64,000 nt of DNA from Prorocentrum cordatum (Eukaryota), in assembly GCA_963575745.1 (NCBI GenBank), contig CAUYUJ010000203.1, forward strand, positions 310,001 to 374,000, in the 5' to 3' direction. Each line of letters opens with the position of its first letter. Positions within the stretch are counted from its first letter, which is position 1. A model generated the notes under the pieces. It had not been told where the DNA came from. It saw nothing but the letters and a program-made list of their open reading frames with translations, and searched no databases. Positions 28,594 to 28,950 of this stretch are shown here, one piece after another. The translations under genes were made by a program, and so were the position numbers.

Positions 28594-28950
28594 AATCTTC
28601 TGGAGGTCTGCGTACCCCCCCGACAGCGGCCTCAGCAAGGAGGTGGAGAACATGGGAGGCGTCATCTCGCGTATGGGACTGTTCAACATGTTCGACTTCA
28701 GTAAGAAGACGACAGTCGTCAAAGCACACGAGTCCTACACCTACGGATGCGGCTGGGGCATGAGGAGCAACATCACTGGAGAACTCATCAGGAAGGGCTG
28801 GAGGATACTCACCACCAATCAGAGACTTGCGGACAGACTACGTAAGAGATGCACTCGAGATCATCAGCACACCGTAATCGAGACGGGAACAGCAGATGTG
28901 GGTGATACGGCGAAGTATCCCAAGGCAATGTGCAGGAAATGGGCAGCTAC
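28594..28950 (+). pseudogene. C5 cytosine DNA methyltransferase-like domain, internally deleted
   Basis: The N-terminal part LLEVCVPPDSGLSKEVENMGG..RMGLFNMFDFS needs one C removed from a C7 run. It joins directly to YGCGWGM...IRKGWRILT...RKRCTRDHQH..IETG...TAKYPKAMC. No PC or ENP/EWP motif lies between them. Confidence 0.75.

What the first reader, a model, noticed from the sequence alone, without database searches (positions are those of the whole stretch)
28594..28950. Copia retrotransposon carrying a cytosine-methyltransferase domain whose catalytic core appears deleted in frame
Seen: between protease and integrase lie LLEVCVPPDSGL..GG..RMGLFNMFDFSK and YGC.WG...K.WRILT...RC..DH.H..IE.G....KYP..MC. 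Known: C5-DNMT domains have been reported inside dinoflagellate (Symbiodinium) retrotransposons (de Mendoza et al. 2018). From memory these two blocks match the N- and C-terminal parts of such domains, which are normally separated by the catalytic PC (motif IV) and ENP/EWP (motif VI) region. Here they are only ~10 codons apart (KTTVVKAHES, ~28705-28735) with the frame into integrase preserved. Inference: either this copy has a clean deletion, or a lineage keeps a catalytically dead mini-DNMT as a scaffold or decoy.
Basis: partly seen in the sequence, partly recalled or inferred. Interest (0 to 1): 0.85.

Follow-up and report, generated by a model that had tools for sequence, protein, structure and literature searches.

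The report
Decayed Copia element, DNMT-like domain gutted
A dead Copia-type retrotransposon has lost, by an in-frame deletion, the middle of an accessory domain that intact relatives carry in front of integrase and that is predicted to fold like a cytosine DNA methyltransferase, although sequence profiles do not recognise it.

Summary
An ~8 kb Ty1/copia element (LTRs ~25055-25349 and ~32746-33036, 88.7% identical) carries both blocks upstream of integrase, split by a +1 shift in the C7 run at 28615-28621. A phmmer scan of 1.84 billion representatives gave 133 relatives. In 35 of 35 aligned homologs that span both blocks, 75-103 residues (median 92) lie where the window has none. That stretch holds a near-invariant "PC" (Cys 100 of 103) and an "E.P" (Glu 131 of 133). 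The junction is KA|HES at ~28726/28727 and is in frame.

Pfam gives no PF00145 hit for the window, for 34 homologs or for 45 further hits. hhalign against a Dcm profile is not significant. The AlphaFold2 model of an intact homolog (pLDDT 90.2) nevertheless matches C5-DNMT catalytic domains first in three structure searches (DNMT3A/B Z 11.5-12.2 over ~190 residues; generic Rossmann folds at most 9.6).

The closest relatives keep the centre: P0023 and three contigs of run X2. This copy also has other stops and shifts. The deletion is therefore best read as decay of one copy or a young sublineage, not a selected mini-DNMT. The intact domain family is the interesting part.

The parts
25055..25349 (+). 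5' LTR (approximate ends), followed by a PBS-like TGGTTGAAGTGG
   Evidence: Direct repeat with 32734-33031, 302 nt at 88.7% identity. The pairwise alignment begins at TGTC.
25400..26636 (+). gag-like reading frame (no family match)
   Evidence: Open frame 24861-26636. Pfam gave only a chance-level hit. The assignment rests on position alone.
26479..27090 (+). Zinc knuckle (CLICQGPHRTVDC) and aspartic protease (IIDTGAS, DTG at 26716-26724), ending in a stop
   Evidence: Frames. Asp_protease_2 E 0.0063, 17.6 bits, below Pfam's cut-off.
27091..28539 (+). About 1.4 kb between protease and the DNMT-like domain. It is readable only in pieces, with stops at 27088-27090, 28325-28327 and 28510-28512, and has no family match.
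28585..28620 (+). Start of the DNMT-like domain (motif-I-like strand and loop), frame 1: HRTNLLEVCVPP
   Evidence: BLASTP to P0077 residues 5-16: 8 of 12 identical, E 4e-7. It corresponds to the consensus D..EVCC..DS.L of alignment A1.
28615..28621 (+). C7 run carrying a one-base insertion (+1 frameshift) inside the domain
   Evidence: Related contigs of run X2 lack one base at 28613/28615 (1 + 2 contigs).
28622..28726 (+). Rest of the N block, frame 2: DSGLSKEVENMGGVISRMGLFNMFDFSKKTTVVKA
   Evidence: It matches P0077 and P0004.
28722..28729 (+). Deletion junction (KA|HES). About 92 codons are missing here: the PC strand-loop, a long helix and the E.P strand.
   Evidence: 35 of 35 homologs have 75-103 residues here. 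BLASTP skips 88 residues of P0004. Related X2 contigs match only from 28726/28728 rightwards and run on upstream with unlike sequence.
28727..28957 (+). C block of the DNMT-like domain: HESYTYGCGWG...K.W...C..DHQH...KYPKAMC...
   Evidence: Best phmmer stretches fall at query 36-132. The family-invariant G-C, K, W, C, H and Y are all present.
29102..30617 (+). Integrase (zinc-finger region ...IHVNMNRMG...KCSICEATV, then the core), broken by a stop at 29564-29566 and a change of frame
   Evidence: rve E 0.051, below cut-off. P0134 is 70% identical over the integrase part and reads through where the window stops. Frames.
30796..32620 (+). Reverse transcriptase (RVT_2) and the downstream RNase H region, in two overlapping frames
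   Evidence: PF07727 E 5.1e-12, 46.4 bits, above the cut-off. ORFs 30796-31431 and 31403-32620. RNase H is assigned by position only.
32746..33036 (+). 3' LTR (approximate ends)

Best explanation
The window holds an old, dead copy of a Ty1/copia-type LTR retrotransposon. It belongs to a lineage whose polyprotein carries an extra domain of about 225 residues directly upstream of integrase.

The intact domain is predicted to adopt the fold of a C5 cytosine methyltransferase catalytic domain, closest to DNMT3A/B. It keeps a Pro-Cys after the fourth strand and a Glu at the end of the next strand, where DNMT motifs IV and VI lie. Its sequence is too diverged for PF00145.

In this copy a single in-frame deletion of about 92 codons removed exactly that central part. 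This fused the motif-I/II-side block to the block after motif VI at KA|HES (~28726/28727). The same domain also carries a +1 insertion in a C run. The element has further stops and shifts in the linker and in integrase.

Shown: the anatomy, the deletion relative to all homologs, the predicted fold of an intact homolog, and the decay of this copy.

Inferred:
- The deletion is a decay event of this copy or a young sublineage, with no function of its own.
- It probably arose by slippage or template switching.
- The remnant cannot form the seven-stranded core, because two central strands and the helix between them are gone.
- In intact elements the domain is a working enzyme or a DNA-binding module that acts with integrase on DNA or cDNA.
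For: Element type:
- LTR pair at 88.7% identity.
- RVT_2 at E 5.1e-12, and the order protease, integrase, RT.

The domain is a regular part of the lineage:
- 133 phmmer hits.
- Of 12 long hits scanned, 7 carry RVT_2 and 3 carry rve downstream of the domain.
- gag_pre-integrase follows the domain in 4 of 34 homologs.

The deletion:
- 35 of 35 homologs have 75-103 residues at the junction.
- BLASTP gives two segments that skip 88 residues of P0004.
- 87 of 87 family proteins that cover both sides keep at least 60 of the 95 central profile columns.

The centre is under selection:
- Cys of PC 100 of 103, Pro 91 of 103, Glu 131 of 133, following Pro 120 of 134, Trp 127 of 137.

Fold:
- AF2 model of P0008 with alignment A1: pLDDT 90.2, pTM 0.86.
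- Foldseek against PDB: 38 hits at E<=1e-3. Every listed one is DNMT3A/3B or DNMT2; DNMT3L chains appear only below that threshold. Best E 7.4e-5.
- VIA-align against 48,161 representatives: DNMT3A Z 11.7 (201 aligned, 5.7 A), DNMT3B Z 11.5 (193, 4.6 A), M.HhaI Z 9.8. The next fold class, short-chain dehydrogenases, reaches at most 9.6 with 153-168 aligned.
- Second look: all 50 listed rows are C5-DNMTs, best Z 12.2. Model residues 15-243 align to DNMT3A 626-910.
- Atlas: the nearest cluster is auto-named a cytosine-5 methyltransferase family protein (0.96). The nearest Pfam-bearing cluster is PF00145 (0.88, a lead only).

Near relatives with an intact centre:
- P0023 (73% identical over the aligned stretch) reads ...EHPLNASSW...QFYESISYVCGWGM.
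- Run X2 records 8 and 9 match 28726-28951 with 16 and 18 differences. They carry 294 and 58 further letters upstream that do not fit the window. By my reading of the printed consensus these encode ...PEMFDTRQQL.
- A third X2 contig at 28728 encodes ...GLFNVWEQF.

Decay of this copy:
- Stops at 27088, 28325, 28510 and 29564, plus the C7 shift.
- P0134 reads through the integrase stop.
Against: - No sequence-profile link to DNMTs. PF00145 is absent at every threshold tried. The PDB profile search found only eL24 at E 0.16. hhalign against a shallow Dcm profile aligned only the SPPCT.WS / GFPCQPFS stretch, at E 0.03-0.06 and probability 1-2%.
- Foldseek TM-scores are low (0.32-0.41).
- The DNMT rows stand only about 2 Z units above generic Rossmann folds.
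- The motif-I position lacks the glycine-rich loop (consensus C-C-x-x-D-S-x-L), so SAM binding is uncertain.
- No residue-level structural alignment was available. The equivalence of PC and E.P with motifs IV and VI rests on their place in the strand order.

On 'private deletion':
- No genome was available.
- One X2 contig joins 28722 to 28729 with 'between: not known'. That contig could be a copy sharing the junction, or one holding the centre.
- A 223-nt X1 contig identical to 28665-28887 bridges the junction, but it may come from the window's own source.
Confidence: 0.78

Rival explanations
1. A sublineage of the element keeps and spreads the short form as a functional 'mini-DNMT': a catalytically dead scaffold, decoy or integrase-tethering piece.
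For: - The reading frame runs from the remnant into integrase.
- All family-invariant residues of the C block are still present.
- One X2 contig joins 28722 to 28729 and might share the junction.
Against: - 87 of 87 family proteins that cover both sides keep the centre, as do 35 of 35 in alignment A3.
- The closest relatives found keep it: P0023 and three X2 contigs at about 92% nucleotide identity.
- The remnant itself is interrupted by a +1 shift that relatives lack.
- The element has diverged LTRs (88.7%) and several stops.
- An in-frame outcome has a one-in-three prior by chance.
- The deletion removes two core strands of the fold (by inference).
Confidence: 0.07
2. The domain is not DNMT-related. 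It is some other Rossmann-like module (another enzyme or a binding domain), and the PC and E.P motifs resemble DNMT motifs by convergence.
For: - There is no PF00145 or PDB sequence match.
- hhalign probability is 1-2%.
- There is no glycine-rich motif I.
- Short-chain dehydrogenases reach Z 9.6.
- Foldseek TM-scores are 0.32-0.41.
Against: - Every listed Foldseek hit at E<=1e-3 is a C5-DNMT, as are all 50 listed rows of the second look.
- The three top rows of the search that does not lean on Foldseek are also C5-DNMTs.
- The DNMT alignments cover about 190-200 residues, against 153-168 for the dehydrogenases.
- They span the whole DNMT3A catalytic domain, 626-910.
- The one stretch hhalign aligned with confidence is motif IV.
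- The Atlas feature search points the same way.
Confidence: 0.13
3. The short form is an assembly artefact: a collapse between two similar stretches.
For: The two sides of the missing part both carry an F-D-F-like stretch at protein level (LFNMFDFS in the window; PELFDFW in P0010).
Against: - The junction does not lie at that stretch. It lies 10 codons later.
- A separately assembled 223-nt contig of run X1 matches 28665-28887 without a difference.
Confidence: 0.02

Closest known systems
DNMT-carrying retrotransposons of Symbiodinium (SymbioLINE-Dnmt, SymbioDIRS-Dnmt3) and Klebsormidium (de Mendoza et al. 2018, PMC5890265; passages read)
   Same: A retrotransposon polyprotein carries a cytosine-methyltransferase-type domain. 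Some relatives of the present family come from dinoflagellates (Prorocentrum cordatum / Polarella glacialis records).
   Different: - Those DNMTs are found with PF00145 and sit in LINE and DIRS (or DIRS/Gypsy-like) elements.
- The paper says Symbiodinium Copia elements lack any DNMT domain.
- Here the element is Copia (RVT_2), the domain sits directly before integrase, and PF00145 does not see it.
- A 2025 paper (PMC12344493, one passage) mentions DNMT3 members inside 'LTR Copia and DIRS' elements. I could not tell whether that includes this family.
DNMT3A/DNMT3B catalytic domain (PDB 4u7t, 6u8p, 9mp0 and others)
   Same: It is the best structural match over the whole domain: Z 11.5-12.2, about 190-200 residues, model 15-243 to DNMT3A 626-910. 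There is a Pro-Cys after a central strand and a Glu at the end of the next. The region after motif VIII is small.
   Different: - Sequence identity is 6-10% in the structural alignments.
- There is no profile match.
- Motif I is not glycine-rich.
- A conserved C...C...H.H set lies in the C-terminal half. I read this as a possible zinc site, which is inference.
- Activity is unknown.
DNMT3L (catalytically dead DNMT3 paralogue)
   Same: It is a weaker structural match of the intact domain (2pv0_B, Z 8.4).
   Different: DNMT3L keeps the whole fold and has lost catalytic residues by substitution (recalled knowledge). The window's remnant lacks the central third of the fold and lies in a broken element.
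Arthropod Copia elements with a captured methyl-CpG binding domain (de Mendoza et al. 2019, PMC6673714; search listing and abstract only)
   Same: A Copia retrotransposon has taken up a module of the host DNA-methylation system.
   Different: That module is a reader domain (MBD), not a methyltransferase-fold domain, and the host group is different.

Membership tests
Ty1/copia LTR retrotransposon | Copia-type reverse transcriptase (Pfam RVT_2) | tested here: met
   PF07727 at E 5.1e-12, 46.4 bits against a cut-off of 31.6.
Ty1/copia LTR retrotransposon | Integrase upstream of RT, and flanking LTRs | tested here: met
   The order is protease (26479-27090), integrase (from 29102), RT (from 30796). 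P0134 is 70% identical over the integrase. The LTR pair is 88.7% identical. The rve match itself is below cut-off (E 0.051).
C5 cytosine DNA methyltransferase (PF00145) | Match to the family's sequence profile | tested here: not met
   - Window pieces: no hit, even at E<=10.
- 0 of 34 intact homologs at E<=0.1.
- 0 of 45 profile hits carry a precomputed PF00145.
- hhalign against the Dcm profile: E 0.03-0.06, probability 1-2%.
C5 cytosine DNA methyltransferase (PF00145) | Catalytic-domain fold | tested here: met
   This was tested for the intact homolog P0008, not for the window's remnant. Foldseek's best hits are all C5-DNMTs. VIA-align gives Z 11.7, 11.5 and 9.8 in the wide search and up to 12.2 in the second look, covering DNMT3A 626-910. 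It rests on a predicted model.
C5 cytosine DNA methyltransferase (PF00145) | Motif IV Pro-Cys nucleophile | tested here: not met
   It is absent from the window because it lies in the deleted part. In the family a PC is present at the topologically matching place: Cys 100 of 103, Pro 91 of 103. hhalign aligns it to Dcm's PC. The equivalence is inferred, because no residue-level superposition was available.
C5 cytosine DNA methyltransferase (PF00145) | Motif VI Glu (ENV) | tested here: not met
   It is absent from the window (deleted). In the family E.P has Glu in 131 of 133 sequences, at the end of strand 135-141 of the model. The equivalence is inferred from strand order.
C5 cytosine DNA methyltransferase (PF00145) | Motif I glycine-rich SAM loop (F.G.G, recalled) | tested here: not met
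   The family consensus after strand 1 is C-C-x-x-D-S-x-L with Ser in 73 of 74 sequences. The window reads C-V-P-P-D-S-G-L.
C5 cytosine DNA methyltransferase (PF00145) | SAM binding and methyl transfer to cytosine | not testable with these tools
   This needs biochemistry on an intact family member.
SymbioLINE / SymbioDIRS DNMT retrotransposons | LINE (endonuclease + RVT_1) or DIRS (tyrosine recombinase) backbone | tested here: not met
   The backbone here is Copia: RVT_2 with a DDE-type integrase. The description of the Symbio elements comes from PMC5890265 passages.

The most novel reading that the evidence does not exclude
A broad lineage of Copia retrotransposons of marine protists carries a DNMT3-fold domain fused in front of integrase as a selected, standard part of its polyprotein. 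Named relatives come from dinoflagellate records and from a transcriptome labelled as a prasinophyte. There are 133 cluster representatives in all. The domain keeps the nucleophile Cys and the Glu but has a remodelled cofactor loop, and it is invisible to the Pfam DNMT profile, so earlier surveys would have missed it. If it is active, it would be a further capture or retention of a cytosine-modifying enzyme by retrotransposons, this time physically coupled to integration. The window's copy would be one decayed witness of that lineage.
Probability: 0.4. Interest if true: 0.75.

Novelty: new variant of a known kind. Interest (0 to 1): 0.55.

Why it matters
The deletion itself is ordinary decay of a dead transposon copy and matters little.

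What it exposed matters more. Retrotransposon-borne DNMTs are known from LINE and DIRS elements, found with the Pfam profile. Passages of the 2018 survey (PMC5890265) state that Symbiodinium Copia elements have none.

Here a Copia lineage carries a domain with a predicted DNMT3-like fold and near-invariant Cys and Glu at the expected places, yet below profile detection. If confirmed, this would:
- widen the set of mobile elements that bring their own cytosine-modifying fold;
- show that profile-based censuses undercount them;
- offer a compact DNMT-fold domain fused to an integrase, in which to test whether methylation (or mere base-flipping DNA binding) is coupled to integration.

Tried and rejected
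- **Other copies inside the window:** none. blastn of the element against the window found only itself and its LTR pair.
- **PDB by sequence:** no hit for the window piece at E<=10. The A1 profile hit only ribosomal protein eL24 at E 0.16, which I take as chance.
- **hhalign of A1 against a Dcm profile:** not significant. The Dcm profile was shallow (12 sequences, 74-99% identical), because the search seeded with E. coli Dcm returned only close orthologs.
- **The search for homologous proteins with 28616-29566:** 2 hits, neither covering the junction.
- **The search for related loci in metagenome contigs:** 2 distant loci (31% and 36% identity), of no use for the junction.
- **Sequencing runs:** 4 listed, only small shares (0.20 and 0.09), and no RNA holder listed.
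  - X4 laid nothing.
  - X3 laid only on a low-complexity stretch at 28235-28272.
  - The X2 joint 28722>28729 ('skips 6, between: not known') cannot be read either way.
- **AF2 of the window's remnant with alignment A3:** pLDDT 79.9, pTM 0.66. I reject this as evidence that the remnant folds, because the network rebuilds the local pieces of the parent fold from the alignment.
- compared the wrong reading frame by my slip and found nothing. One search is the correct frame.
- **Literature:** four full-text searches found no description of a DNMT-like domain before integrase in Copia elements. One passage of PMC12344493 mentions DNMT3 in 'LTR Copia'. Supplements were not read.
- **Ideas dropped:** I considered an SGNH/GDSL hydrolase (because of the D-S-x-L) and a PD-(D/E)xK nuclease (because of the invariant D, E and K). 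I dropped both once the fold searches returned DNMTs.

Full report
**What is there.**

The finding lies inside one LTR retrotransposon of about 8 kb.
- Two direct repeats of about 300 nt (about 25055-25349 and 32746-33036) are 88.7% identical over 302 nt.
- Between them the frames read a gag-like region, then a zinc knuckle and an aspartic protease with DTG (26479-27090).
- About 1.4 kb without any match follows, then the block in question, then integrase.
- Last come a Copia-type reverse transcriptase (PF07727, E 5.1e-12) and the downstream region.
- The order protease, integrase, RT together with RVT_2 makes it a Ty1/copia element.
- It is not intact. There are stops at 27088, 28325, 28510 and 29564 and several changes of frame. 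The LTRs have diverged by about 11%. No second copy lies in the window, and no genome is held for it.

**The observation.**

- Frame 1 reads HRTNLLEVCVPP up to a run of seven C at 28615-28621.
- Frame 2 goes on with DSGLSKEVENMGGVISRMGLFNMFDFSKKTTVVKAHESYTYGCGWGM...KYPKAMC and stays open into integrase.
- A phmmer scan of 28616-29095 against 1.84 billion cluster representatives gave 133 proteins at E<=1e-3, 7 at E<=1e-10, best 1.6e-45.
- The frame-1 piece matches P0077 residues 5-16 (8 of 12 identical, pairwise E 4e-7). P0077 continues with the frame-2 block.
- In run X2, three of about four related contigs lack one base at 28613/28615.

**The missing centre.**

Intact relatives share this consensus:

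D..EVCC..DS.L...V...GG...R.GL.NGFDL ... RPR..W.SPPC.PWS..QN.N ... (long helix) ... E.P.....W ... GC..G......G....K.W.I.TT.......L..RC...H.H....G......SA.YP..MC

- The window goes from ...FDFSKKTTVVKA straight to HESYTYGCGWG....
- BLASTP against P0004 gives two segments, query 10-39 to 1-30 and query 38-106 to 119-186, skipping 88 residues.
- In alignment A3, 35 of 35 homologs that cover both sides have 75-103 residues (median 92) at this point.
- With a family profile, 87 of 87 proteins that cover both flanking invariant columns keep at least 60 of the 95 central columns.
- The lost part holds the most conserved residues of the family: Cys of PC 100 of 103, Glu of E.P 131 of 133, Trp 127 of 137.
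- Both sides are read in the same frame, so the loss is a multiple of three.

**Is it a DNMT?**

By sequence profiles, no.
- PF00145 does not match the window's pieces even at E<=10.
- It matches none of 34 intact homologs at E<=0.1, and 0 of 45 further profile hits carry it.
- The PDB profile search gave nothing relevant.
- hhalign against a shallow Dcm profile aligned only SPPCT.WS with GFPCQPFS, at E 0.03-0.06 and probability 1-2%.

By predicted structure, yes.
- AlphaFold2 on P0008 with 34 homologs gave pLDDT 90.2 and pTM 0.86.
- Foldseek against PDB returned 38 hits at E<=1e-3. All listed ones are DNMT3A/3B or DNMT2, though with low TM-scores of 0.32-0.41.
- A search that does not lean on Foldseek ranked DNMT3A (Z 11.7, 201 aligned, 5.7 A), DNMT3B (Z 11.5, 193 aligned, 4.6 A) and M.HhaI (Z 9.8) first among 48,161 representatives.
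- Short-chain dehydrogenases came next, at Z at most 9.6 with 153-168 residues aligned.
- In the second look all 50 listed rows are C5-DNMTs, best Z 12.2. Model residues 15-243 cover DNMT3A 626-910, the whole catalytic domain.
- In the model the PC follows strand 80-83 and the invariant Glu ends strand 135-141. From established knowledge of C5-MTases, motifs IV and VI lie at those places.
- This equivalence is inferred from strand order. I had no residue-level superposition.
- The language-model Atlas points the same way. Its nearest cluster is auto-named a cytosine-5 methyltransferase family protein (0.96), and the nearest Pfam-bearing cluster is PF00145 at 0.88, which is a lead only.
- The motif-I position lacks the glycine-rich loop (C-C-x-x-D-S-x-L, Ser in 73 of 74 sequences). 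Cofactor binding is therefore open.

**Where the domain belongs.**

- Of 12 long hits scanned, 7 have RVT_2 and 3 have rve downstream of the domain, and 3 have no Pfam hit.
- gag_pre-integrase follows the domain in 4 of 34 homologs.
- The domain is thus a regular part of a Copia lineage, placed directly before integrase.
- Named members come from Prorocentrum cordatum / Polarella glacialis records.
- The two closest fragments (P0001 at 79% identity, P0023 at 73%) come from a EukProt transcriptome labelled Pyramimonas sp. CCMP1952. Most others are unnamed metagenome proteins.

**Private or shared deletion.**

- The closest relatives I could find keep the centre. P0023 reads ...EHPLNASSW...QFYESISYVCGWGM.
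- In run X2, two contigs match 28726-28951 with 16 and 18 differences. They carry 294 and 58 further letters upstream that do not fit the window.
- By my own reading, the printed consensus of those letters encodes ...PEMFDTRQQL, the natural end of the centre (compare P0001). A third contig at 28728 encodes ...GLFNVWEQF.
- Against this, one X2 contig joins 28722 to 28729 with 'between: not known', which may or may not be a copy with the junction.
- A 223-nt X1 contig identical to 28665-28887 bridges the junction, but it may stem from the window's own source.
- I conclude that the deletion is younger than the split from copies about 8% diverged. It is not a family trait, but I cannot exclude a few sister copies.

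**Mechanism.**

For the window, the remnant is a relic.
- It lacks two central strands and the helix between them.
- It is itself frameshifted.
- It sits in an element with broken integrase and diverged LTRs.
- The in-frame outcome has a one-in-three chance and needs no selection.
- A deletion by slippage or template switching is plausible but not shown.

For intact elements, the near-invariant Cys, Glu, Asp, Lys and Trp argue for a working active site or a precise DNA-contacting surface.
- My preferred reading (inference, about 0.5) is an enzyme of the C5-MTase type that acts on cDNA or target DNA together with integrase.
- The alternative is a non-catalytic base-flipping or DNA-binding module that guides integration.

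**Comparison with what is known.**

- Passages of de Mendoza et al. 2018 (PMC5890265) describe DNMTs in Symbiodinium LINE and DIRS elements, found with PF00145. They state that the abundant LTR Copia superfamily lacks any DNMT domain.
- One passage of a 2025 paper (PMC12344493) mentions DNMT3 members inside LTR Copia and DIRS elements.
- Four full-text searches showed no description of this integrase-adjacent, profile-invisible domain.
- I therefore rate the family as a new variant of a known kind, and the deletion itself as ordinary.

**Verdict.**

The in-frame loss of the PC / E.P core is real, and the DNMT nature holds at the level of predicted fold only.
- The 'selected mini-DNMT' idea is unlikely.
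- Interest is 0.55, carried by the intact family rather than by this copy.

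Noticed in passing
window 27091-28539: About 1.4 kb between protease and the DNMT-like domain has no Pfam match and can be read only in pieces. One piece is a 258-aa frame (27551-28327) rich in acidic and low-complexity stretches. Intact relatives such as P0011 also have about 170 unassigned residues before the domain.
   Followed up: partly
window 33987-35315: A very long array of 9- and 12-nt periodic trinucleotide repeats reads as poly-Thr on the minus strand (442-aa open frame) and poly-Leu in other frames. 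It starts about 950 nt downstream of the 3' LTR.
   Followed up: no
window 22706-23008 and 24100-24200: GGA/GAG-type purine repeats give poly-Gly and poly-Glu frames upstream of the element.
   Followed up: no
window 22405-22504 and 43477-43576: There are two runs of exactly 100 N (assembly gaps). The first lies about 2.6 kb upstream of the 5' LTR.
   Followed up: no
family alignment A1 (P0008 residues 167, 200, 212, 214): A conserved set lies in the C-terminal half of the domain: G-C (Cys 161 of 163), C (157 of 161) and H.H (first His 151 of 157). It looks like a zinc site and sits where canonical DNMTs have the target-recognition region.
   Followed up: partly
window 29564-29566 compared with P0134: The integrase reads GIY-stop where the 70%-identical relative P0134 reads GIHWEVGPAEAHWKHGRVEV... 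and continues. After the stop the window needs a frame change and lacks part of the relative's sequence.
   Followed up: partly
P0001 and P0023: The window's two closest protein relatives come from a transcriptome labelled as a prasinophyte green alga, while other named family members are dinoflagellate records. This could mean the family spans distant algal groups, or that the transcriptome is mixed.
   Followed up: no
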